Positions 3,008 to 27,511 of a stretch of 64,000 nt of DNA are shown here, piece after piece; the stretch's first letter is position 1, and the number at the start of each line of letters is the position of its first letter. Below the pieces are notes generated by a model. That model saw nothing but the letters and a program-made list of their open reading frames with translations, was not told the DNA's origin and ran no database searches. The DNA comes from Dehalococcoidia bacterium. GTDB taxonomy: Bacteria; Chloroflexota; Dehalococcoidia; Lucifugimonadales; UBA3495. The position numbers and the translations under genes are program-made. The DNA is taken from contig CBDESR010000002.1 of assembly GCA_965242615.1 (NCBI GenBank), positions 136,349 through 200,348 on the forward strand, in the 5' to 3' direction.

Positions 3008-4135
3008 CTATCCGGCCCGTTGCCCGCTCGACCGCCGCTGTGCCAGCTGCGCCGCCTGCCGCGCCCGCACCTCCGCCACCCGCCGCGCCGGCCCCATCAT
3101 CCGCCGATACACCAGCCAGCCCACTACTGCCAGCCCCGCCAGCGACATCAGCGTCAAACTCCACGCCGGCCACCCGTAAAACAGATACAAAGCCGTGATG
3201 ACGATGGAATAAAAGGACAGCGGTACCATCGCCTTCCACGCAAAAGCCATCAACTGGTCAATCCGCAGCCGGGGGAAAGTCCCCCGAATCCAGAACACCA
3301 CCAGTATAACCGCATAAACCTTGATTAGAAACCACACCACCCCCGGCAACAGCGGCCCCGACCACCCGCCCAGAAACAGCAGCGTCACCAGGGCGGCGAT
3401 GGCAAAGGTATTGATATACTCTGCCAGAAAGAACACCGACCAGTGCGCCCCGCTGTATTCCACAAACGGCCCCCCCACTACCTCCGACTCGGCGTGGTAA
3501 ATGTCAAAGGGCGTCCGTCCCACTTCGGCCAAGCCGGCGATAAAGAATACCACCATCCCCAAGGGCAAAATCAAGGCGTACGGCACCGGATTTTGCTGCG
3601 CCACAATCACCTGCAAATTCAGCGATTGCGCCAGCATCGCCACCGCTACCACTACCATAATCACCGGGATTTCGTAGCTGATTAGCTGTGCCGCCGACCG
3701 CAACCCTCCCAGTACCCCATACTTGTTAGCCGACCCCCATCCCGCCAGCACCAGCCCCAGAATCCCGATAACTGCAAAGGCCGTGATGTAAAACAGCCCC
3801 AAGTCCAGATTCCGCAGTACCAGCCCTTCCGCTCCGGGAATAGTTACCCAAATCATAAAGGCCGACATAACCACGATAACCGGCGCCGCCCAGAAAATCG
3901 CCTTGTCCGCCGAATCCGGAATAATATCCTCTTTCAGGATCAGTTTCACCGCGTCCGCAATGGGCTGCATCAACCCCATCGGCCCGGTGCGCGTCGGCCC
4001 TAACCGCAATTGCAGCCGCCCCAAGGCTTTCCGCTCCAGCCACACCATCGACAGTACCACCACCGATAGCGCCGTGAACATCGCTAGCAGCCCCGCCACC
4101 ATCCACGCCAGATCCGTCAAACTCACCGGCGGCAT
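3008..4135 (-). CDS. nuoH: NADH-quinone oxidoreductase subunit H, copy 1
   Basis: ORF 3008..4201. I prefer the internal ATG at 4135-4133, which overlaps the nuoD stop by 1 nt (TAATG). Polytopic membrane protein with the NuoH-like segments LERKALGRLQLRLGPTRTGPMGLMQPIADAVKL and EVGRTPFDIYHAESE. Confidence 0.9.
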   Translation of the reverse strand: MPPVSLTDLAWMVAGLLAMFTALSVVVLSMVWLERKALGRLQLRLGPTRTGPMGLMQPIADAVKLILKEDIIPDSADKAIFWAAPVIVVMSAFMIWVTIPGAEGLVLRNLDLGLFYITAFAVIGILGLVLAGWGSANKYGVLGGLRSAAQLISYEIPVIMVVVAVAMLAQSLNLQVIVAQQNPVPYALILPLGMVVFFIAGLAEVGRTPFDIYHAESEVVGGPFVEYSGAHWSVFFLAEYINTFAIAALVTLLFLGGWSGPLLPGVVWFLIKVYAVILVVFWIRGTFPRLRIDQLMAFAWKAMVPLSFYSIVITALYLFYGWPAWSLTLMSLAGLAVVGWLVYRRMMGPARRVAEVRARQAAQLAQRRSSGQRAG

Positions 4136-5283
4136 TACCGATCCACCTCCCCCAGCACAATATCCAGCGACCCCAGAATCACCACCGAATCCGCAATCCA
4201 CGAATCTTGCAGCAGATGCTTAATCGCCGCCAAGTTGCAGAAAGAGGGCGGCCGCACCTTCACCCGGTAGGGCCGGTCCGTACCGTTGCTGACCAGATGA
4301 ACGCCGATTTCCCCCCGGGGATTCTCCGACCGCACATACACCTCTCCGGCCGGCGGCCGAATCAGCCGCCGCCCCAGGGACGAAGTCACATTCCCCGCCG
4401 GCATTTGCGCCAACGCCTGCTCCACAATCCGCAGCGACTCGTACATCTCCTGCACCCGTACCCAATGCCGATCCCAGCAATCCCCATCCAAGCCGACCGG
4501 AATATCAAACTCAAACCGGTCATACACCGAATAAGGCTGCGCCTTGCGGACATCATACTCCACCCCGCACCCGCGCAGACACGGCCCGGTCAGCCCGTAG
4601 CCAATGGCATCCTCCCGGCTGATCGCCCCCACATCCTTGAGCCGGGACAGGAAAATCTCATTAAAAGTCAGAATTTTGTCGCTTTCCTCGACATCCGCCC
4701 GCACCACCGGCAGCAAATCCCGAATCAGCTGCTCAAAGTTATCCGGCAGCTCCTCTTTCAGTCCGCCGATGCGGAAATAGTTGTGCATCATCCGCGCCCC
4801 GGACACCGCCTCAAACAAAGCCTGAATCCGTTCCCGCCCCCGAAAAGCGAACATCGTCGGCGTCATCGCCCCGGCGTCCAGCCCGATTGTCCCAACATAC
4901 AGCAAGTGGCTGGCAATGCGGTTCAGTTCACACAGGATAACCCGCACATACTCCGCCCGCTCCGACACTTCCAACCCCATCAGCTGCTCCACCGCCCGGC
5001 AATAAGCCAACTCATTATTAAAGTTAGCCACATAGTCCAGCCGGTCAAACAGGGTAATGACCTGATGGTACTGCTCCCCCTCGCACAGCTTTTCCGAACC
5101 CCGGTGCAGGTAGCCGATATGCGGCTCGACGGCAACGATTTTCTCCCCGTCCACCCACAGCACCATCCGAAATACGCCGTGCGTCGACGGATGTTGCGGC
5201 CCCATATTCAGCAGCATCTCCATCGGCTCGGCGTCAGCCGGCCCGGCGGCAGTGGTGGTTAGGTCCGTGCGGGTCTCTATCAT
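4135..5283 (-). CDS. nuoD: NADH-quinone oxidoreductase subunit D (49 kDa), copy 1
   Basis: 382 aa with NMGPQHPSTHGVFRMVL...HIGYLHRGSEKL...LGSLDIVLGEVDR, the hallmark NuoD N- and C-terminal motifs. SD GGGGAG upstream of the ATG. Confidence 0.93.
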   Translation of the reverse strand: MIETRTDLTTTAAGPADAEPMEMLLNMGPQHPSTHGVFRMVLWVDGEKIVAVEPHIGYLHRGSEKLCEGEQYHQVITLFDRLDYVANFNNELAYCRAVEQLMGLEVSERAEYVRVILCELNRIASHLLYVGTIGLDAGAMTPTMFAFRGRERIQALFEAVSGARMMHNYFRIGGLKEELPDNFEQLIRDLLPVVRADVEESDKILTFNEIFLSRLKDVGAISREDAIGYGLTGPCLRGCGVEYDVRKAQPYSVYDRFEFDIPVGLDGDCWDRHWVRVQEMYESLRIVEQALAQMPAGNVTSSLGRRLIRPPAGEVYVRSENPRGEIGVHLVSNGTDRPYRVKVRPPSFCNLAAIKHLLQDSWIADSVVILGSLDIVLGEVDR

Positions 5284-5304
5284 CGGTCTCCCCGATACCC
5301 TCGG

Positions 5305-5574
5305 TTACAGAAAAGTCAGCCGCGGCTCCTTCGGCGGCGTCACTAGGCTGCTCATCCAAACCTCATCATTGTCATAAAACCCGGCGTCAATCAGCACCGC
5401 ATCCAGGATACCCAGCTCCTCGCAGTCCTCCAGATACGCCCCGATTTCGGCCCGCAGCGCCTGCCGCGCCGCATCCGCGCTGTCCCCAAAGCCGGTAATC
5501 ACCAACTCCGGGCAATACGCTTCCCAGCTGCTCCCCTGCTGCGACTCCTCAATTTGATAGACGATTTTATCCAC
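5305..5574 (-). CDS. Small HicB-fold (UPF0150-like) protein embedded in nuo operon copy 1 (second of a tandem pair)
   Basis: ORF 5305..5682. I prefer GTG at 5574-5572, 4 nt after the upstream TAA (5581-5579). The sequence VDKIVYQIEESQQGSSWEAYCPELVITGFGDSADAARQALRAEIGAYLED... matches the HicB-like antitoxin-fold pattern (aromatic-x-A-x-x-P-x-L...G-x-[ST]-x-x-x-A...L). The stop is 21 nt before the nuoD start. Confidence 0.6.
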   Translation of the reverse strand: MDKIVYQIEESQQGSSWEAYCPELVITGFGDSADAARQALRAEIGAYLEDCEELGILDAVLIDAGFYDNDEVWMSSLVTPPKEPRLTFL

Positions 5575-5578
5575 GCGG

Positions 5579-5836
5579 TTACTCCACGAACTGCAATTGC
5601 AGCTCCGTATACTCCTCCACTCCCGGAAACCCGGCTTGCGCCAGCGTCTCCTCCAGCGCGCTTTTCCCGTCCTGAACCTCAATCCAGGAACGCATCAGGC
5701 TAATCAAATTGTCCTGGGCTTGGGCGGCGGTTTCCCCCTCGGCTTCCAGCTCCAAGGCGTCCAGGCGGGCGATATAGCGGCCGTCGGACTGCTGCACTTG
5801 GGCGGTCAAAACCGTTGGCTCGAGGATTGGCGTCAC
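5579..5836 (-). CDS. Small HicB-fold-like protein embedded in nuo operon copy 1 (first of a tandem pair)
   Basis: 85-aa ORF starting at GTG 5836, 5 nt after the nuoC stop TAG (5844-5842). The segment ...DGRYIARLDALELEAEGETAAQAQDNLISLMRSWIE...LAQAGF aligns with the downstream paralog (...WEAYCPELVITGFGDSADAARQALRAEIGAYLE...LIDAGF). Confidence 0.55.
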   Translation of the reverse strand: MTPILEPTVLTAQVQQSDGRYIARLDALELEAEGETAAQAQDNLISLMRSWIEVQDGKSALEETLAQAGFPGVEEYTELQLQFVE

Positions 5837-5841
5837 TGTTG

Positions 5842-6381
5842 CTAAAACTCCCGGTACTCGTAAAAGGGAAACTCTTTCCGCCCCGGAAAGCCCTCAAACC
5901 CTTCATACAGCAGCAGCGGCGCCTCGTCCGGATTCCCCTCGAAAGAGACTCCGAACAAATCCCGCGCTTCCCGCTCGTACCATTCCGCCGCCGGCCAAAT
6001 CCCCGCCACCGACGGCAGGCGCGGGTCAGCATAAGGCACCTCGGCCTTGATGACCAGCATCCCCGCGGTCTCAATGGAATGGAGAAAATAAACCAGCTGA
6101 AAATAGCTTTCGTAGTCCACGCAGGAAAGACAATGCAGCATCGTCAGCGCCAACCGGGCATCCTCTTTAGCCCGCCGGCACGCCCGCTCAATCGCCGCCG
6201 CCGCCATTTTCACCTGCGGTAGGTCTCCCAATACGCCCGGCTCGGGATCCAAGTCCCCCAGAACTTCCTGCGCCGCCGTCAGCGTTTCCCGCCCCCGGTC
6301 CGACAGAACCGAATAGTCGGGTTGCGCGGCGGCATCCCCGGCTTCCCCGTGGCCGGCGGCTTGTCTAGTTGCCGCTGCCAC
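5842..6381 (-). CDS. nuoC: NADH-quinone oxidoreductase subunit C (30 kDa), copy 1
   Basis: ORF 5842..6492. The C-terminal two thirds are NuoC-like: [21 protein letters not shown]...[30 protein letters not shown]...[17 protein letters not shown], which parallels copy 2. The start is uncertain. GTG at 6381 would overlap the nuoB end by 17 nt, and the upstream part of the ORF overlaps nuoB in another frame. Confidence 0.8.
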
Positions 6382-6898
6382 TCTTGGCGTCCTGCATAAT
6401 CTTTTCCTGAAGTTTAAGGATACCGAACAGCAGCGCCTCCGGCCGCGGCGGACATCCCGGCACATAAACATCCACCGGGATGATATGGTCAACCCCCATC
6501 ACCACCGAATAGGAGCGGTAATAAGGGCCGCCATTCGTAGCGCAACTCCCCATCGCGATAACCCACTTCGGATCCGGCATCTGCTCGTACAGCAGGCGGA
6601 TAGGCTCCGCCATTTTCTTGACCACCGTCCCCGCCACAATCATCACATCCGACTGCCGCGGCGACGGCCAGGTCACTACCCCGAACCGGTCGAAATCGTG
6701 ATGCGCCATATAGGTGGAAATCATCTCGATGGCGCAGCAAGCCAAGCCGAAACTCAGCATCCACAGCGACGACTTGCGGGACAGGGCGAAAAGCTGCTCG
6801 CTGGTAGTGGTAATCACCCCCGGCGCCCTGCCAGACATAGCCTGATTCAACAGACTCGGCGCCGGCCGATTCCCCGGCCCCAGAATTATTTCTGCCAT
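6365..6898 (-). CDS. nuoB: NADH-quinone oxidoreductase subunit B (20 kDa, N2 cluster), copy 1
   Basis: ORF 6365..7021. I prefer ATG at 6898-6896 (MAEIILGP...). Motifs: [24 protein letters not shown] and [11 protein letters not shown]. Confidence 0.92.
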
Positions 6899-8614: not shown

Positions 8615-9858
8615 TTGGAGCACTTTGAGCTTTTTACTGGGCAAAGGGACTTGGAGAGGGTTTTCGCGGAGTTGAACTTGCCATCCTTAGCTCAGAGATT
8701 AGAACCAGAGTGCCCCGACCCGAGGGGGCGGCCGCGGTACTCGCGGTTGGCGTTTCTGCAGGCCTTTTTCCTGGCTAGGGCCAGGGGCTGGGAGAGCACG
8801 GCGCAATTGGTAAGGGAGTTACAGTTGAACGCGGCATTTGCATATTTCTGCGGCTTCACGGAAGTGGGCGTCGGACAGGCTGTCGTTATCAGGGTACCGC
8901 ATCGGACTACTTTCTCCCGGGCCTTTGCCGAGGTTTGCCGAGGGCTTCCTCTGTTGGAAGCCCAGCTCCGAGAGATTGCGCGGGAGTACGCTTCCCTTGT
9001 CGAGGGTTTCGGGGAAGATTTAGTAGTAGATGCTTCGGTTGTGCCGACCAATGCCAACCCTACTAAGCGGCCTAAGGGCGGGCTGTCCCGGTATACTGAT
9101 CCAGATGCCGGCATTGCGGTGAAGAACTCGCCGCGTTCTCTGGACGGCAAGGTAAAAGTACTTGGCTACAGCTGTCATTCGGCAGTGGATGCGAAGACCG
9201 GTTGTTTGCTGGACCTGGTAGTTTCGCCGGGCGGAGTCCATGAAACGACATTGCTGGGCGGGGTGGTTGACCGACTGCTGGAGCGGCATCCGCAACTGCC
9301 TTTCCGTTCTTTGATTACCGACCGGGGCTACGACTCCAAGCTGAATAACGAGATGTTGTATAAGATAGGGATTAACCCGGTGATTCACAAGCGGCGGCCG
9401 CGGGGAGGAGGCTTGCACGACGGGATTTATACTACCGAAGGGACTCCTACTTGTGTCGGCAGGCAACCAATGATTTTGCGGGTACCGACCCGCGGACCAA
9501 GCAGCGGTTGTATCGGTCTTCTCCAGAAGGCTGTCATTTGAAAGGCCAGGTTCTGTTCACCAGGTTCTGCGATAGTGAGGTAAGGGTGAACCCGGAGGAT
9601 GACATTCGTCTGTTCGGAGGCGCGTTGCGTCGGGACGGGACGGAGTGGCGGGCCAAGTACCGGATGCGCTGGACGGTGGAGCGGCTGTTTTCCGAGTGGA
9701 AAAGGGAGGGGCATATCGAGCGACACCATTTCCGGGGGAAGGATAAAATCGAAACTCTGGTTATCCTTCAAGCCGTGTTCTCAGCAGCCAAAGTTTTGAG
9801 TCGGTTGCGTCAGGGAGAGACTGCCGGGCTGCATCGGGGGATATGGACGGTAAAGTGA
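8615..9858 (+). mobile_element. IS4/IS5-superfamily transposase gene, split by a -1 frame change (8615..9541 and 9451..9858); probably inactivated
   Basis: The N-terminal part resembles the InsH-type N-terminal domain (RGRPRYSRLAFLQAFFLARARGWESTAQLVRELQLNAAFAYFCGF). DDE region: VVDASVVPTN, LITDRGYDS. The C-terminal Y-x2-R-x3-E-x6-K-type motif (YRMRWTVERLFSEWKREGHIERHHFRG) is found only in the second frame. The junction is near 9465-9480. I could not define the element ends. Confidence 0.7.
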
Positions 9859-23626: not shown

Positions 23627-24625
23627 ATGCTGACCACTATCGCCGCTGGGCGGGTGTTTGACTTCAGCCATTGTATCGGGATGTATTCCACTTCCGGCGT
23701 CGGCTTTCTGGTTCCCCAAGACTTTGCCCTCGGCGCTGGGGATACCCTTTATGTGCTGAACCGGGGCGTCGACGAACTGACCCTCCGCATCAGCAAGTGC
23801 CGGCTGAACCACGAATTCATCGCCGACATCGGCCGCTACGGCACGGGGGACGGGCAATTTGTCTGGCCCACTGCGCTGGCACTGGACACGGCCGGCAATA
23901 TCTATGTGGCTGACGAAAACCTGCACCGCATCACGGTTATGGACGCTGACGGACAGTTTCTCCACAAGTGGGGCATCCCGGGCAGTGAATTGGGGCAGCT
24001 GCAAGGCCCTTCGGGGCTGGCTTTTGACCAAGAGGATAACCTGCTGGTCGTGGACAGCCTGAATAACCGGGTGCAGCGGTTCACCAAAGACGGGCAGTTT
24101 ATCGCCGCTTGGGGCAGTTACGGCAGCGGGCCGGGGCAGTTCAACAAACCCTGGGGGATCTGCCTTGACCGGCACGGGGCGGTATATGTCGCCGACTGGA
24201 AAAATGACCGGGCGCAAAAGTTCTCCCCGCAGGGTGAGTTTCTAGCCCAATTCGGCGGCACCGCCGAGGGCGTGGGCGCGTTGCGCCGACCGACCGGCGT
24301 TGCGGTAGATTCCGATGGGGATGTGTATGTGGCTGATTGGGGCAACCATCAGGTCAAAATCTACGAACCGGATGGCAAGTTTATCGCCGCCTTGGTAGGG
24401 GACGCCGAACAGCCCTCCCCTTGGGCGCAGGATTACATTGACGCCAACCCGGATGTCGCCAAAGCCCGGCGGCGGACCAATATGGAAGTGGAATGGCGGT
24501 TCAACCGGCCGATTGCGGTAAAGGTTGACGCCCAAGACCGGCTGTTTGTGGCCGAGGCGGTGCGCCACCGCATCCAGATTTACACCAAGGAAAGGAACTA
24601 CGCCGAGGCGGCGTTGAACCTGTAA
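23627..24625 (+). CDS. NHL-repeat beta-propeller protein
   Basis: 332 aa with about six repeats of the pattern G-x-G-x-GQF-x-x-P-x-G-[IL]-A-x-D-x-x-G-x-[IV]YVAD-x-x-N-x-R-[IV]-Q-x-F. Confidence 0.8.
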   Translation: MLTTIAAGRVFDFSHCIGMYSTSGVGFLVPQDFALGAGDTLYVLNRGVDELTLRISKCRLNHEFIADIGRYGTGDGQFVWPTALALDTAGNIYVADENLHRITVMDADGQFLHKWGIPGSELGQLQGPSGLAFDQEDNLLVVDSLNNRVQRFTKDGQFIAAWGSYGSGPGQFNKPWGICLDRHGAVYVADWKNDRAQKFSPQGEFLAQFGGTAEGVGALRRPTGVAVDSDGDVYVADWGNHQVKIYEPDGKFIAALVGDAEQPSPWAQDYIDANPDVAKARRRTNMEVEWRFNRPIAVKVDAQDRLFVAEAVRHRIQIYTKERNYAEAALNL

Positions 24626-24696: not shown

Positions 24697-26712
24697 CTAC
24701 CCTATGGGCAAACTTCTCCTGTGAATCGGAGTTTGGCGAATTTCTTCCTCTTCAGCGAGGGCCGCCGCCAACCCCGGCACATACTCCGCCCCGGCTGGCG
24801 CGGTCAGCGATGAGCCGGCCAAATCATCCCCCGCCGGCTCATATCGCCCGCCCAAGTGTTCCGCCAGAAATGCCTCGGCTACCGCAAAGAAGGACAAGTT
24901 GTTTTCCGGGCGGGCAAAACCGTGTCCCTCGTCCGGGTAAAGAACATAAGTAACCGGGATGTTCTTTTCCTGCATCGCCGCCACTATCTGGTCCGACTCC
25001 GACTGCTTGACCCGGGGGTCGTTAGCCCCTTGTCCAATCAGCAACGGCCGGCGGATATTGTCCACATAGGTCAGCGGCGAGCGTTCCGTCAGAAATGCCC
25101 GGCCTTCCTCAGTGCGGTAATCCCCCACCCGGCTGGTGAACAGGTCAATCTGCGGCTGCCAGTACGGGGGTATGGTGTTCATCAGCGTTATCAGGTTGGA
25201 CGGCCCGACGATGTCCACCCCGCAGGCAAAGACTTCCGGGGTGAAAGTCATCCCCACCAGCGCGGCATAGCCGCCGTAGCTGCCGCCCAGAATGCCCACC
25301 CGCTCCGGGTCGGCAATGCCCTGCGCCACCGCCCACTGCACGGCGTCCACTAGGTCAGTGTGCATCTTGCCGCCCCATTCCCGATTGCCGGCATTGCTGA
25401 ATCCCTTGCCAAACCCGGTAGAACCCCGAAAGTTGACGCTCAACACCGCGTAGCCCCGGTTCGCCAGCAGCTGAAAAACCGGGTTGTAACCCCATTCATC
25501 CCGCGCCCAAGGGCCGCCGTGTACCAGCAGAGCCAGCGGCAACGGCTTGTACGGCAAGCCGGTATTATCCGGGTCCGCCTCCCGGGGCAGGGAATAGTAG
25601 CAAACCAGGTTCAGCCCGTCCCGGGCCGGAATAGTAACCGGGTAATTTTTGACCAGCGGTTGCCCTTCCAACGCCGCCCGGTTGGTGAACAGGAATTGCG
25701 CTTCCCGCCTTTCCCGCAAGTAGCGATAGTAGCGCACCGGCCCATCATCCAGCAGATAAGCCACAATCCAGCAACTATCGTCCAGAGTGCGGCTCAGCAC
25801 CTCAATATCCCCCTCCGCCACCGTATCCAGAAACTCCAGGTCGGCGGCAATAGCCGCATCCAATACCTGCCATTCCTTGCGCTCGTAGGTAAAGGCCGCC
25901 GCCTGCACCGTCCTTTCCGTGGGATGGGTCAGGGTATCGCTGACATCGGCCCGGGCGTCCGATGCCAGAATAGTCGCAGCGCCGCTAGCCAGATGAACCG
26001 ATTGCAGCGCCGCCGTATCCCGCCCCCGGCTGTCGGTCAAAAACAGCGTTTCTCCGGAACGGTCAAAGCCCACCGGCCCGGTAGTCAAACTATCCTCTTG
26101 CCCCACGGTGATGAACGGTTGCCAGCTGCCATTATCATCCCTTTCCAGATACTCCGCGCCCCCGTCGGCAGTCATCCGCACCGCAAAGCGCACCTTAAAG
26201 TCGGCATCGGTAACGAACCCGGCAAAACCGTCATTCTGCAATACCAGAGAGCGCTCCCCGGTTGCCAAGTCAATGCGGTAAATATCGTGAAATTGGGCGT
26301 CCCGGTCGTTCAAGGCCGCCAGAATATGCCCCGGTTGTTTGGGGCTGACTTCCTGAATCTGGGCGTGGATACCCTCCAACGGCGTCAAGTCCAGGATAGC
26401 GTCCGATTCCAGATGAACGGCGTAAAGATGCCAATTTTCATCCCCACCCGCATCCTGCAAATAGATGATCTGCGCCCCGCTATAAGCCCAGCCGTAAAAG
26501 CGGATGCCGCGCCCGGTATCCCGGGTAACCGGCAGGGCCGCCGCCGGGTTATCCGCCGGGGCGACCCAAACATTCAGTACGCCCTCCCAAGGGGCTAGCC
26601 AGCTAATCTGCGCCCCGTCCGGGCTGATTTGGGCCGACGCCCGATCCGGGTTGCCGAAAAGCAGTTTGCGGGGAATCAGCGGGGAAACTTCCCCGGCGGT
26701 GGGCAAAGTCAT
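24697..26712 (-). CDS. S9 family serine peptidase (prolyl oligopeptidase / acylaminoacyl-peptidase type)
   Basis: ORF 24697..26853. I prefer ATG 26712 (MTLPTAGEVSPLIPRKLLFGNPDRA...). An N-terminal beta-propeller region is followed by a C-terminal alpha/beta hydrolase with the nucleophile elbow GGSYGG and ...DPRV...DEGHGF. Confidence 0.88.
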   Translation of the reverse strand: MTLPTAGEVSPLIPRKLLFGNPDRASAQISPDGAQISWLAPWEGVLNVWVAPADNPAAALPVTRDTGRGIRFYGWAYSGAQIIYLQDAGGDENWHLYAVHLESDAILDLTPLEGIHAQIQEVSPKQPGHILAALNDRDAQFHDIYRIDLATGERSLVLQNDGFAGFVTDADFKVRFAVRMTADGGAEYLERDDNGSWQPFITVGQEDSLTTGPVGFDRSGETLFLTDSRGRDTAALQSVHLASGAATILASDARADVSDTLTHPTERTVQAAAFTYERKEWQVLDAAIAADLEFLDTVAEGDIEVLSRTLDDSCWIVAYLLDDGPVRYYRYLRERREAQFLFTNRAALEGQPLVKNYPVTIPARDGLNLVCYYSLPREADPDNTGLPYKPLPLALLVHGGPWARDEWGYNPVFQLLANRGYAVLSVNFRGSTGFGKGFSNAGNREWGGKMHTDLVDAVQWAVAQGIADPERVGILGGSYGGYAALVGMTFTPEVFACGVDIVGPSNLITLMNTIPPYWQPQIDLFTSRVGDYRTEEGRAFLTERSPLTYVDNIRRPLLIGQGANDPRVKQSESDQIVAAMQEKNIPVTYVLYPDEGHGFARPENNLSFFAVAEAFLAEHLGGRYEPAGDDLAGSSLTAPAGAEYVPGLAAALAEEEEIRQTPIHRRSLPIG

Positions 26713-26836
26713 AATTGGGCTGCTCCTCAAGTTGATGGGGTTAAGCGGGAATAAATCTTGACCGCTATTCTTGGCGCAATGAGAATGACGGGAAAACCGG
26801 TAATAATCCGGCGCTATTGGTATCCCGTCCCGACCG

Positions 26837-27511
26837 TCAGCTGTCCACCCCACCGATCGGGATGGCCGACAAATCGGCGCCGGTTTCGGTCAGCAGGTTG
26901 CGGATGTGCAATTCCGTCTCCAGATACGCCCCTTCGCCAATATGGTGAAAGCGGATGACGCCTTGAGCATCGATAAGAAACTTGTGCGGCCAGTAGCGGT
27001 TGTTGTAAGCCCGCCAAGTCCGAAAATCGTTGTCCATTGCCACCGGCCAAGTTACCTTAAGCCGCGGCAGGGCTTCCCGCACATTTTCCTCTTTTTTCTC
27101 AAAGTCAAACTCCGGGGAATGGACGCCGACCACTACCAACCCTTGGCCGGCGTACTTGTCATACCAGTCCCTTACATACGGCAGGGTACGCTGGCAGTTG
27201 ATTCAAGAGTAAGTCCAGAGATCCACCAGCACCACCTTGCCCCGCTGCTCCACCATCAAAAGAGGCTCGCTGTTGAGCCAAGCAGTGACGCCGCGGAATT
27301 CCGGGGCCGCTTCCGTACCCGGCGGGGTAACTATGGCCGGAACCGGCGTCGGTTTAGGCGTGGATTGGGGCGGCGGAGTTACTTCCGCTGACACCGGCGC
27401 ACCGGTCGGAGCCGCCGCCGGTTGAAACGCCCACAAGATACCCACCAAGGCAGCGATAAAGGCGATGGCGGCGGCCAAGGGCAAACCGGCTTTGATTTTG
27501 GAAATGCCCAT
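26837..27511 (-). CDS. Membrane-anchored thioredoxin-fold redoxin (TlpA/DipZ-C-terminal type) with in-frame TGA at the first CxxC position: candidate selenoprotein (U-I-N-C)
   Basis: Two same-frame ORFs in the track (27203..27511 and 26837..27139) are separated by a single TGA at 27205-27203. Read-through gives ...KVVLVDLWTYS[TGA]INCQRTLPYVRDWYDKYAGQGLVVVGVHSPEFDFE...YWPHKFLIDAQG.... Family members carry WxxxCxxC at this point. A SECIS-like hairpin lies downstream. Confidence 0.7.
27164..27194 (-). promoter_or_regulatory. Candidate bacterial SECIS element
   Basis: In the mRNA, CCAG at +9..+12 after the UGA pairs with CUGG at +36..+39, and CCCU at +17..+20 pairs with AGGG at +31..+34. G21-U29 and C22-G28 can extend the stem, leaving an apical CGUAU loop with GU about 24 nt after the UGA. 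The structure was folded by hand only. Confidence 0.45.

What the first reader, a model, noticed from the sequence alone, without database searches (positions are those of the whole stretch)
26837..27511. In-frame TGA at the first Cys of a redoxin CxxC motif: candidate selenocysteine (UxxC) thiol-disulfide oxidoreductase with a SECIS-like hairpin
The ORF track shows two minus-strand ORFs in the same frame, 27203..27511 and 26837..27139 (27511-27139 is divisible by 3). They are separated by one TGA at 27205-27203, and I read the gap and found no other stop.

Read-through gives a single 224-codon protein. It has an N-terminal membrane anchor (GLPLAAAIAFIAALVGILWAF) and a Pro-rich linker. Then comes ...KVVLVDLWTYS-[TGA]-INCQRTLPYVRDWYDKYAGQGLVVVGVHSPEFDFEKKEENV...WPVAMDNDFRTWRAYNNRYWPHKFLIDAQGVIRFHHIGEGAY.

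This is the thioredoxin-fold redoxin sequence type (TlpA/ResA, DipZ C-terminal domain) that carries W-x-x-x-C-x-x-C. The TGA sits exactly at the first, nucleophilic Cys, giving U-I-N-C. A Cys/Sec swap at this position is the classic hallmark of bacterial thioredoxin-fold selenoproteins.

Downstream, the mRNA can form a stem-loop. CCAG at +9..+12 pairs with CUGG at +36..+39, and CCCU at +17..+20 pairs with AGGG at +31..+34. G21-U29 and C22-G28 can extend the stem, leaving an apical CGUAU loop with GU about 24 nt after the UGA. That placement is expected of a bacterial SECIS.

Splitting the locus into two genes would leave the second half without a signal anchor or active site. Automated annotation would probably miss or truncate this gene.
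Basis: partly seen in the sequence, partly recalled or inferred. Interest (0 to 1): 0.8.

Follow-up and report, generated by a model that had tools for sequence, protein, structure and literature searches.

The report
Selenocysteine redoxin gene split by TGA
This is almost certainly a real gene for a membrane-anchored, thioredoxin-like redox enzyme whose catalytic cysteine is replaced by selenocysteine (encoded by TGA); it belongs to a known kind of bacterial selenoprotein, and gene finders routinely cut it in two.

Summary
The minus-strand ORF 27511..26837 has one in-frame stop, TGA at 27205-27203. Read-through gives a 224-aa protein: TM anchor, Pro-rich linker and a DipZ-C-terminal-like thioredoxin-fold domain.

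The TGA sits on the first Cys of an invariant WTY[S/T]-C-INC motif. All 24 closest full-length homologues have Cys there, including syntenic positional orthologues.

I found 22 further genes in independent genomes and metagenomes with TGA at this codon. All keep the frame open on both sides. dN/dS downstream of the TGA is about 0.06-0.10, so pseudogene, sequencing error and split-gene readings are rejected.

The hairpin is only partly supported. Its stability is no better than shuffles, synonymous recodings or Cys-form orthologues, and its lower stem breaks in sister lineages. However, the 21 nt covering the upper stem and loop (27187-27167) show no synonymous change in nine orthologues, against a background rate of about 0.45 (permutation p = 4e-5). 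The Cys-forms use different codons there.

The Sec machinery of this genome could not be checked. No selA/B/D or tRNA-Sec lies in the window, though relatives clearly use Sec.

Verdict: a genuine UxxC selenoprotein, a new member of a known kind, of moderate interest.

The parts
26837..27511 (-). Complete selenoprotein gene: 224 codons including Sec103, plus a terminal TGA stop at 26839-26837
   Evidence: Searches show a single internal TGA. One search gives the Pfam redoxin domains. Searches show collinear orthologues with the same start (MG[IL]SKIKAGLPL in L138).
27203..27205 (-). In-frame TGA, the proposed Sec codon (residue 103), at the first position of U-I-N-C
   Evidence: It aligns with an invariant Cys in 24 homologues and in DipZ 2HYX, WAYSCINCQR. 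TGA sits at the same codon in 22 other genes.
27194..27196 (-). TGC, the resolving Cys106 of the UxxC motif
   Evidence: Invariant column C106.
27425..27487 (-). N-terminal hydrophobic segment GLPLAAAIAFIAALVGILWAF (residues 9-29), a signal anchor or signal peptide
   Evidence: Read directly from the sequence. An equivalent hydrophobic segment is kept in L135-L138 despite sequence divergence. The topology is inferred, not tested.
27311..27424 (-). Pro/Thr/Ala-rich linker (residues 30-67)
   Evidence: This region is variable in length and sequence among homologues.
26933..27310 (-). Thioredoxin-fold redoxin domain (residues 68-193), DipZ-C-terminal-like
   Evidence: Pfam Redoxin covers residues 68-193. 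The match to M. tuberculosis DipZ 2HYX/5CYY has E = 2e-46 over residues 68-210.
27167..27187 (-). Invariant 21-nt block ACC CUG CCG UAU GUA AGG GAC (codons +6..+12, nt +16..+36 after UGA), the proposed SelB-binding core of the SECIS
   Evidence: There are 0 synonymous differences in 244 pairwise comparisons among 9 orthologues, against a background of about 0.45 (permutation p = 4e-5; p = 1e-4 with 5 sequences). It uses the rare codon AGG (5% of Arg) and GTA (17% of Val). Cys-form orthologues use CCC TAC GTG CGG/CGA there and vary.
27169..27186 (-). Upper stem and apical loop. The 5' arm CCCUGC is 27186-27181, the loop CGUAU is 27180-27176, and the 3' arm G-U-(A bulge)-AGGG is 27175-27169.
   Evidence: It is 100% paired in 8 distinct sequences. 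Five pairs never vary and one changes C-G to U.G. In L139 that change allows a contiguous 6-bp stem with a 5-nt CGUAU loop.
27162..27196 (-). Full local hairpin including the lower stem (UGCCAG 27196-27191 with CUGGUA 27167-27162)
   Evidence: The local MFE is -11.2 kcal/mol. The lower stem is kept in the closest relatives L135-L138. Pair C13-G41 (alignment columns) is broken in 5 of 8 distinct sequences, and the lower stem is also present in Cys-forms, so its role is doubtful.

Best explanation
The locus is one gene for an extracytoplasmic, membrane-anchored thiol-disulfide oxidoreductase of the TlpA/DipZ-C-terminal type. In it, the N-terminal nucleophilic Cys of the CxxC motif is replaced by selenocysteine (U103-I-N-C106).

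Proposed mechanism:
1. The ribosome reaches UGA at 27205-27203.
2. SelB.GTP.Sec-tRNA(Sec) is recruited by an mRNA element starting about 16 nt downstream. Its core is the invariant ACCCUGCCGUAUGUAAGGGA, with upper stem CCCUGC/G-U-AGGG and a GU-containing CGUAU loop 22 nt after the UGA.
3. Sec is inserted and translation continues for another 121 codons.
4. The N-terminal hydrophobic segment targets the protein to or through the membrane, so the redoxin domain faces outward.
5. Sec103 attacks substrate disulfides (or sulfenates). The resulting selenenylsulfide is resolved by Cys106, and the U-C pair is re-reduced by a membrane electron shuttle of the CcdA/DsbD type.

Shown here: the single gene, Sec/Cys equivalence at the active-site column, conservation of the TGA, selection on the downstream half, and RNA-level constraint on the 21-nt block.

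Inferred only: that the constraint reflects SelB binding, the topology, the substrates, the electron donor, and the presence of selA/selB/selC/selD in this genome.
For: - Single internal TGA in an otherwise open 224-codon frame.
- Redoxin, AhpC-TSA and Thioredoxin_8 domains span the TGA. The best solved relative is DipZ 2HYX (E = 2e-46), whose SCINC aligns on S-U-INC.
- All 24 closest full-length homologues have Cys at the TGA column. P0001, P0002 and P0006 are positional orthologues with luciferase-like/redoxin synteny (MFS also present in P0001's locus).
- TGA at the same codon, with both flanks open, occurs in 8 species genomes, 8 metagenome contigs and 6 further distinct contigs. L135 is collinear with the window over about 17 kb at roughly 78-87% nucleotide identity.
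- Downstream of the TGA, dN is 0.14 and dS is 1.4-2.5.
- TGA is an ordinary stop in 10 of 25 window genes, so there is no code reassignment.
- Synonymous-site silence is confined to codons +6..+12 (p = 4e-5). Rare codons are used there, and Cys-forms use other codons. The only variant, C19 to U in L139, preserves pairing.
- The lineage uses Sec. UGSC-family genes are interrupted by TGA at ...VCL-U-GSC... next to the Cys-form orthologues. Chromosome OZ253548.1 carries this redoxin (L058) and also a C-U-INC Trx-NHL gene (L005), from a family with a covarying canonical SECIS.
- Dehalococcoidia MAGs are among the richest known selenoproteomes (BSepDB, PMC13326102).
Against: - No selA, selB, selD or tRNA-Sec was found in the 64-kb window or in about 1 Mb of related loci. 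The source genome is not on record, so the machinery is unverified.
- Hairpin energy is not significant: z = -0.54 and codon-resampling p = 0.31. Cys-form orthologues fold as well or better, at -12.5 to -15.6 kcal/mol.
- A strict reading of the bSECIS consensus is not met. That reading requires a 3-9 nt loop closed by at least 4 contiguous bp with G in loop position 1 or 2. Here the loop is 10 nt, or 5 nt only if a 1-nt bulge is allowed.
- No compensatory double changes were seen.
- There is no consensus structure across all 16 Sec-forms. Clade B and L141 favour a different GUAC-N6-GUAC hairpin.
- There is no experimental evidence of selenium incorporation.
Confidence: 0.88

Rival explanations
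1. Pseudogene or sequencing/assembly error: a TGC/TGT codon was hit by a nonsense change, real or artefactual, and the gene is dead or the base call is wrong.
For: A Cys codon becomes TGA by a single base change. Only one sequence of this exact organism is available.
Against: The same TGA is found in 22 other independently assembled genes, with no frameshift or further stop. dN/dS is about 0.06-0.10 downstream of the TGA. The window shares the Sec-form-specific codon block CCG TAT GTA AGG with the other TGA-forms. Cys-forms lack it.
Confidence: 0.02
2. Two separate genes: a small anchored peptide ending at the TGA, plus a C-terminal protein started internally (for example at TTG 27139). This is how gene finders call it.
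For: Public annotations of the relatives call exactly such pairs, with N-terminal fragments of 89-133 aa and C-terminal fragments of 98-116 aa.
Against: The 21 codons between the TGA and the first possible start (INCQRTLPYVRDWYDKYAGQG) are highly conserved at the protein level. They include the resolving Cys. The fold would be cut through its active-site helix. Cys-form orthologues are single polypeptides.
Confidence: 0.03
3. UGA read-through without selenocysteine: near-cognate or suppressor decoding inserts Cys or Trp at position 103, and the conserved downstream block stimulates read-through independently of SelB.
For: The Sec machinery is unverified for this genome. The conserved block does not fit the strict bSECIS model.
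Against: The position is the catalytic Cys of a CxxC motif, the classic Sec/Cys exchange site. Relatives carry other TGA-interrupted selenoprotein genes: UGSC and C-U-INC with a canonical covarying SECIS. The GU-containing loop 22 nt after the UGA matches the spacing and loop rule of the published model (PMC13188914).
Confidence: 0.05

Closest known systems
C-terminal thioredoxin-like domain of Mycobacterium tuberculosis DipZ (PDB 2HYX, 5CYY)
   Same: It is the best solved relative (E = 2e-46 over residues 68-210). It shares the motif W-x-Y-S-C-I-N-C-Q-R and flanking blocks such as GVH.PE..FEK and NRYWP. It is also an extracytoplasmic redoxin domain.
   Different: DipZ has Cys, not Sec. It is fused to an N-terminal CcdA-like multi-pass membrane domain and carries a further C-terminal domain (PF17991). 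The window protein has a single hydrophobic anchor and lacks PF17991. It is a stand-alone paralogue or orthologue of the domain, not a DipZ.
Catalogued UxxC thioredoxin-fold bacterial selenoproteins. [quoted passage not shown]
   Same: The same kind of protein: a Trx-fold oxidoreductase with Sec in place of the first Cys of CxxC, abundant Cys homologues and an in-ORF SECIS.
   Different: I could not obtain the catalogue's reference sequences, so identity with any listed family is untested. GOS 'Prx-like 3' matched pfam08534 only at E > 0.001, whereas this protein matches at 1e-9. It is therefore probably a different, DipZ-like subfamily with the motif WTY[S/T]-U-INC.
NCBIfam NF041054, 'ResA-like WAxxUGC motif-containing protein'
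   Same: A ResA/TlpA-like selenoprotein with Sec in the active-site motif.
   Different: The match is only 18 bits against a cut-off of 300. It has a different motif (U-G-C) and length, so the window protein is not a member.
Trx-like domain of NHLRC2 (PDB 6GC1) and plant SOQ1 (7DJJ), and their bacterial Trx+NHL homologues
   Same: They are the next-closest solved relatives (E = 1e-19 to 5e-23), with the same ...WTY-x-C-INC motif. Their bacterial homologues carry TGA at the same column (WTYC-U-INC) in at least 105 species genomes.
   Different: They are about 500 aa long with a fused NHL beta-propeller and Cys before the Sec. They have a different, canonical SECIS (7-bp stem, AGUU loop). They form a separate family.
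Bacterial SECIS consensus (bSECISearch model; E. coli fdhF as prototype)
   Same: The element lies inside the ORF just after the UGA. It has a G followed by U at loop positions 2-3. The UGA-to-loop spacing is 22 nt, within the 16-37 range. The MFE in the window is -8.3 to -11.2 kcal/mol, below the -7.5 threshold.
   Different: The upper stem needs a 1-nt bulge, otherwise the loop is 10 nt and exceeds the 9-nt limit. There is no covariation. Other clades of the same family appear to use other hairpins.

Membership tests
Bacterial selenoprotein gene (UGA recoded as Sec) | In-frame UGA aligning with Cys in non-selenoprotein homologues | tested here: met
   All 24 closest homologues have Cys at that column. 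Syntenic Cys-form orthologues have TGC. DipZ has Cys.
Bacterial selenoprotein gene (UGA recoded as Sec) | UGA conserved in orthologues, with the reading frame intact and under purifying selection on both sides | tested here: met
   22 further TGA-forms were found. dN/dS downstream is about 0.06-0.10.
Bacterial selenoprotein gene (UGA recoded as Sec) | SECIS stem-loop immediately downstream that fits the consensus model (3-9 nt loop, at least 4 bp upper stem, G in loop position 1 or 2, 16-37 nt spacing, MFE at or below -7.5) | tested here: inconclusive
   Spacing, the GU loop rule and energy are met in the window. A strict scan fails because of a 10-nt loop or a 1-nt bulge. Energy is no better than controls. 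Strong synonymous constraint lies on the upper stem and loop, and the one change seen preserves pairing.
Bacterial selenoprotein gene (UGA recoded as Sec) | selA, selB, selD and tRNA-Sec present in the same genome | not testable with these tools
   None lie in the window (ARAGORN; tblastn with E. coli SelA/B/D; Pfam scans of 30 window ORFs). The rest of the genome is unavailable. Indirect support: relatives carry other TGA-interrupted selenoprotein genes.
Bacterial selenoprotein gene (UGA recoded as Sec) | Selenium demonstrated in the protein | not testable with these tools
   This needs 75Se labelling or mass spectrometry.
Thioredoxin-fold TlpA/ResA/DipZ-C-terminal-like redoxin | Domain match above curated thresholds | tested here: met
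   AhpC-TSA 43.7 bits (cut-off 26), Redoxin 38.7 (26.6), Thioredoxin_8 35 (27).
Thioredoxin-fold TlpA/ResA/DipZ-C-terminal-like redoxin | CxxC active-site motif at the canonical position after the beta1 strand (W-x-x-x-C-x-x-C) | tested here: met
   DLWTYS-U-INC aligns with DFWAYS-C-INC of 2HYX and with the invariant motif of the family. The first position is Sec.
DipZ (Rv2874-type fusion protein) | N-terminal CcdA/DsbD-like multi-pass membrane domain fused to the redoxin domain | tested here: not met
   Only one hydrophobic segment precedes the domain in the 224-aa protein. It is therefore not a DipZ, only related to DipZ's C-terminal domain.
DipZ (Rv2874-type fusion protein) | C-terminal PF17991 (Thioredoxin_10) domain | tested here: not met
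   It is absent from the window protein and the short-form relatives. It is present in many 350-390-aa homologues, and the ~280-291-aa tails of the long Sec-forms (e.g. L013, L103, L106) are consistent with it.
Catalogued 'Redoxin family protein, PF08534, UxxC' selenoprotein family (PMC13188914 Table 1) | Sequence identity or family membership with the catalogue's reference (HEU0032618.1) | not testable with these tools
   The reference sequence is not retrievable here. The PF08534 and UxxC descriptors fit. The original GOS family matched PF08534 only weakly.

The most novel reading that the evidence does not exclude
The DipZ-like WTY[S/T]-U-INC redoxins, together with the much larger WTYC-U-INC Trx+NHL (NHLRC2/SOQ1-like) proteins found with the same motif search, could be selenoprotein subfamilies that are not yet individually catalogued. 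No NCBIfam model exists for them, and no paper in the library links DipZ, NHLRC2 or SOQ1 to Sec. The DipZ-like clade would then use a lineage-specific SECIS that departs from the consensus (a bulged or 10-nt-loop hairpin). Different clades of one family would have evolved different SelB-binding hairpins over the same conserved peptide.
Probability: 0.3. Interest if true: 0.45.

Novelty: new member of a known kind. Interest (0 to 1): 0.38.

Why it matters
In practical terms, this gene and all its relatives are mis-annotated in public data as two meaningless ORFs of about 100 aa. Extracytoplasmic redox capacity and selenium dependence are therefore under-counted in Chloroflexota-type marine and sponge-associated bacteria.

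Biologically, it adds a DipZ-like, membrane-anchored redoxin to the set of enzymes where Sec and Cys alternate between true positional orthologues. That makes it a clean natural pair for asking what Sec buys an extracytoplasmic disulfide reductase.

The synonymous-site footprint gives a precise 21-nt candidate for the SelB-binding element in a lineage where SECIS rules are poorly known.

This does not change the general picture. UxxC thioredoxin-fold selenoproteins have been known since 2004-2008.

Tried and rejected
- Rfam: no SECIS or any other family over the locus at gathering threshold or at E <= 10 (one meaningless sRNA hit).
- Thermodynamic tests of the hairpin were uninformative: dinucleotide shuffles, synonymous codon resampling and comparison with Cys-forms. 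The 76-nt fold even prefers a different structure.
- RNAalifold over 16 Sec-forms gave no consensus pairs.
- My strict bSECIS scanner found no compliant hairpin in clade A.
- Covariation counting found no double changes.
- Searching for the source genome through exact protein look-ups of the N-terminal fragment and of the neighbouring luciferase-like protein found nothing on record.
- ARAGORN found no tRNA-Sec, and tblastn with E. coli SelA/SelB/SelD found no hits, in the window plus 128 loci.
- A scan of the window for other TGA-interrupted genes gave only spurious antisense or adjacent-gene cases.
- The synonymous-constraint test in clade B (L069, L082, L121, L122, L125) had too little divergence to be informative (p = 0.82).
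- The alternative GUAC-type hairpin (C13-G28) was considered for the window and rejected for clade A. Arg codon +5 varies freely there and breaks it. It may be the functional one in clade B and L141.
- Genetic-code reassignment was rejected, because TGA ends 10 of 25 window genes.
- A functional link between the redoxin and the nearby NHL-repeat protein was considered. Only generic repeat similarity to the Trx-NHL family was found.
Full report
**Observation**

On the minus strand, the frame opened by ATG 27511 runs to the stop at 26839-26837. It has a single internal stop, TGA at 27205-27203. Read-through gives 224 residues:
- a hydrophobic N-terminal segment (residues 9-29);
- a Pro/Thr-rich linker;
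- a domain matching Pfam AhpC-TSA, Redoxin and Thioredoxin_8, all above their curated cut-offs.

His exact structure evaluates to -8.3 kcal/mol, and the 46-nt local MFE is -11.2 kcal/mol with the same two stems. Same-frame ORF pairs separated by one TGA are frequent in this 60% G+C window. This is the only one where the TGA lies on a catalytic residue.

**What the protein is**

The best solved relative is the C-terminal thioredoxin-like domain of M. tuberculosis DipZ (2HYX/5CYY, E = 2e-46). Its WAYS-C-INCQR aligns on WTYS-[TGA]-INCQR. The next relatives are the Trx-like domains of SOQ1 and NHLRC2, then YkuV and ResA. No NCBIfam model claims the protein. Unlike DipZ, it has one anchor rather than a CcdA-like membrane domain. 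It also lacks the PF17991 C-terminal domain that many 350-390-aa homologues carry.

**Is the TGA translated?**

- All 24 closest full-length homologues (50-71% identity) have Cys in that column, within an invariant D-[FL]-W-T-Y-[ST]-C-I-N-C motif.
- Of the four Cys-forms I fetched as DNA, three (P0001, P0002, P0006) are positional orthologues with the luciferase-like/redoxin order seen in the window (the MFS gene is also present in P0001's locus); P0007's locus lacks that upstream synteny.
  - About 105 of those belong to a different family, described below.
  - Eight are orthologues of this redoxin, with WTY[S/T]-TGA-INC.
- A narrower pattern found eight more orthologues in metagenomes.
- Searching the protein database with only the part downstream of the TGA returned about 37 fragments of 92-116 aa at 71-92% identity as top hits. 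These are the truncated C-terminal gene calls of Sec-forms.
- I fetched six of these fragments as DNA, giving eight loci of which L140 and L142 duplicate L139 and L141. All have TGA at the same codon and an upstream fragment called as a separate gene.
- L135, a 547-kb contig, is collinear with the window from the CoA-transferase gene to DUF1800, at roughly 78-87% nucleotide identity.

In total there are 22 additional TGA-forms, none with a frameshift or a second stop. Between the window and four relatives, dN is about 0.14 and dS is 1.4-2.5 downstream of the TGA. The 21 codons between the TGA and the first possible internal start are among the most conserved in the protein. TGA terminates 10 of 25 confident window genes, so the code is standard. 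Pseudogene, sequencing-error, split-gene and reassignment readings are therefore rejected.

**The SECIS question**

Energy is not evidence here:
- the hairpin is no better than dinucleotide shuffles (z = -0.54);
- it is no better than synonymous recodings drawn from the window's codon usage (p = 0.31);

The lower stem is kept in the closest relatives (L135-L138). One of its pairs is broken in 5 of 8 distinct sequences, because Gln CAG becomes Lys AAG/AAA. RNAalifold finds no consensus over the whole family. A strict implementation of the published bSECIS model is not satisfied in this clade. That model requires a 3-9 nt loop, at least 4 bp, G in loop position 1 or 2, 16-37 nt spacing and MFE at or below -7.5 (PMC13188914). 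Here the CCCU/AGGG stem closes a 10-nt loop, or a 5-nt CGUAU loop only if A30 is bulged.

What does discriminate is synonymous-site conservation. In a codon alignment of nine orthologues, the pairwise synonymous difference rate is about 0.45 along the gene. It is 0 of 244 comparisons in codons +6..+12, ACC CTG CCG TAT GTA AGG GAC (27187-27167). The permutation p is 4e-5, and 1e-4 with five sequences.

The block uses AGG (5% of Arg codons here) and GTA (17% of Val). Cys-form orthologues encode the same peptide with CCC TAC GTG CGG/CGA and vary among themselves. A tenth sequence, L139 from a TARA scaffold, carries the only substitution seen in the block, CTG to TTG. This turns C-G into U.G, or in a shifted register gives a contiguous 6-bp stem with the 5-nt loop CGUAU, which then meets the consensus model at -8.0 kcal/mol.

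Its G24-U25 lies 24-25 nt after the UGA. A SelB-binding SECIS core is the simplest explanation. The lower stem is probably incidental. No compensatory double changes were observed, so the structure itself remains inferred. Other clades (L069, L082, L121, L122, L125, L141) conserve CGU ACC GUG/UUG CCG UAC instead. They favour a GUAC-N6-GUAC hairpin, which in the window's clade is broken by free variation of Arg codon +5.

**Sec machinery**

The window contains one tRNA (Met) and no Rfam hit apart from it. tblastn with E. coli K-12 SelA, SelB and SelD found nothing in the window or in about 1 Mb of related loci. ARAGORN found no tRNA-Sec there. Pfam scans of 30 window ORFs show housekeeping genes only: nuo, sdh, icd, mdh, moaA, ruvB and others.

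Indirect evidence is good:
- Next to the Cys-form orthologues in L131, L133 and L134, two adjacent 'UGSC' gene calls are really one gene interrupted by TGA at ...AGVCL-U-GSCTSGS..., a known selenoprotein family.
- Chromosome OZ253548.1 carries both this redoxin (L058) and a C-U-INC gene (L005).
- BSepDB lists Dehalococcoidia MAGs with 46-49 selenoprotein genes (PMC13326102).

**Comparison with what is known**

UxxC thioredoxin-fold selenoproteins have been catalogued since 2004-2008. Examples are the Prx-like thiol:disulfide oxidoreductase, the thiol-disulfide isomerase-like protein, 'Prx-like 3/Redoxin family' and the UGC-TlpA family (PMC1088965, PMC2398784, PMC13188914). This gene is the same kind of thing.

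Whether its DipZ-like subfamily is already among BSepDB's 111 families could not be checked. The GOS PF08534 family matched that Pfam model only at E > 0.001, against 1e-9 here. No paper in the library links DipZ or NHLRC2 with selenoproteins. I therefore class it as a new member of a known kind.

**Side finding**

The motif search also uncovered a much larger TGA-containing family. These are proteins of about 500 aa with Thioredoxin_8/AhpC-TSA plus NHL repeats, the architecture of human NHLRC2 and plant SOQ1, and the motif WTYC-U-INC. They occur in at least 105 species genomes of Dehalococcoidia, Thermomicrobia, NC10, Planctomycetota and Armatimonadota, including the cultured Ca. Fervidibacter sacchari PD1.

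Their SECIS is textbook. It has a 7-bp stem that is 91% paired, against 33-67% when the partner is slid. U-A/C-G swaps occur at two pairs, and the loop is AGUU in 89 of 102 distinct sequences, 25 nt after the UGA.

**Verdict**

This is a real selenoprotein gene with high probability (0.88). It is ordinary in kind, useful for annotation, and of moderate interest.

Noticed in passing
L001-L120 (for example L011:2485-2514, L002, L005); not in the window: A separate and much larger TGA-containing family. These are proteins of about 500 aa with a thioredoxin-like domain plus NHL repeats (NHLRC2/SOQ1-like) and the motif WTYC-U-INC, found in at least 105 species genomes across Dehalococcoidia, Thermomicrobia, NC10, Planctomycetota and Armatimonadota, including cultured Ca. 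Fervidibacter sacchari PD1. They have a canonical SECIS with a covarying 7-bp stem and an AGUU loop. No NCBIfam model exists, and no paper in the library links NHLRC2 or SOQ1 to Sec.
   Followed up: partly
L131:6370-6777, L133:4931-5503, L134:5934-6482: Two adjacent gene calls annotated PF24696 'UGSC' are one gene interrupted by an in-frame TGA (...FMVAGVCL-U-GSCTSGSMLDG...). This is a split UGSC-family selenoprotein, 1-2 kb from the Cys-form orthologues of the redoxin. No homologue is present in the window.
   Followed up: partly
window 23627-24625 (+): A stand-alone NHL-repeat beta-propeller protein (332 aa) lies about 2.2 kb from the redoxin, across the S9 peptidase gene. The arrangement is conserved in L135. 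The sister selenoprotein family fuses a Trx-like domain to NHL repeats, but similarity here is only generic repeat similarity at 26-29%.
   Followed up: partly
L135-L142 and proteins P0121-P0154: Public gene calls split every Sec-form relative into an N-terminal ORF of about 90-130 aa and a C-terminal ORF of 98-116 aa, with no Pfam annotation on most fragments. About 37 such C-terminal fragments top the protein search.
   Followed up: yes
window 24697-26853 (-): The longest ORF of the S9 prolyl-oligopeptidase-family gene starts at GTG 26853 and overlaps the end of the redoxin gene. Orthologues are called at about 655 aa, so the true start is probably the ATG near 26712. The two genes would then be adjacent, not overlapping.
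   Followed up: no
window 8615-9541 (+): A DDE transposase (DDE_Tnp_1/DUF772) sits beside nuo genes (nuoH-, nuoD- and nuoC-like at 3008-6492, minus strand). A second, plus-strand nuo gene cluster lies at about 38.4-48.3 kb, so the window appears to hold two partial sets of complex I genes.
   Followed up: no
L069, L082, L121, L122, L125, L141 (nt +13..+28 after the UGA): In other clades of the same Sec-redoxin family, the conserved downstream sequence is CGU ACC GUG/UUG CCG UAC. It forms a GUAC-N6-GUAC hairpin (loop CGUGCC or CUUGCC) instead of the CCCU/AGGG hairpin. This suggests clade-specific SECIS solutions over the same peptide.
   Followed up: partly
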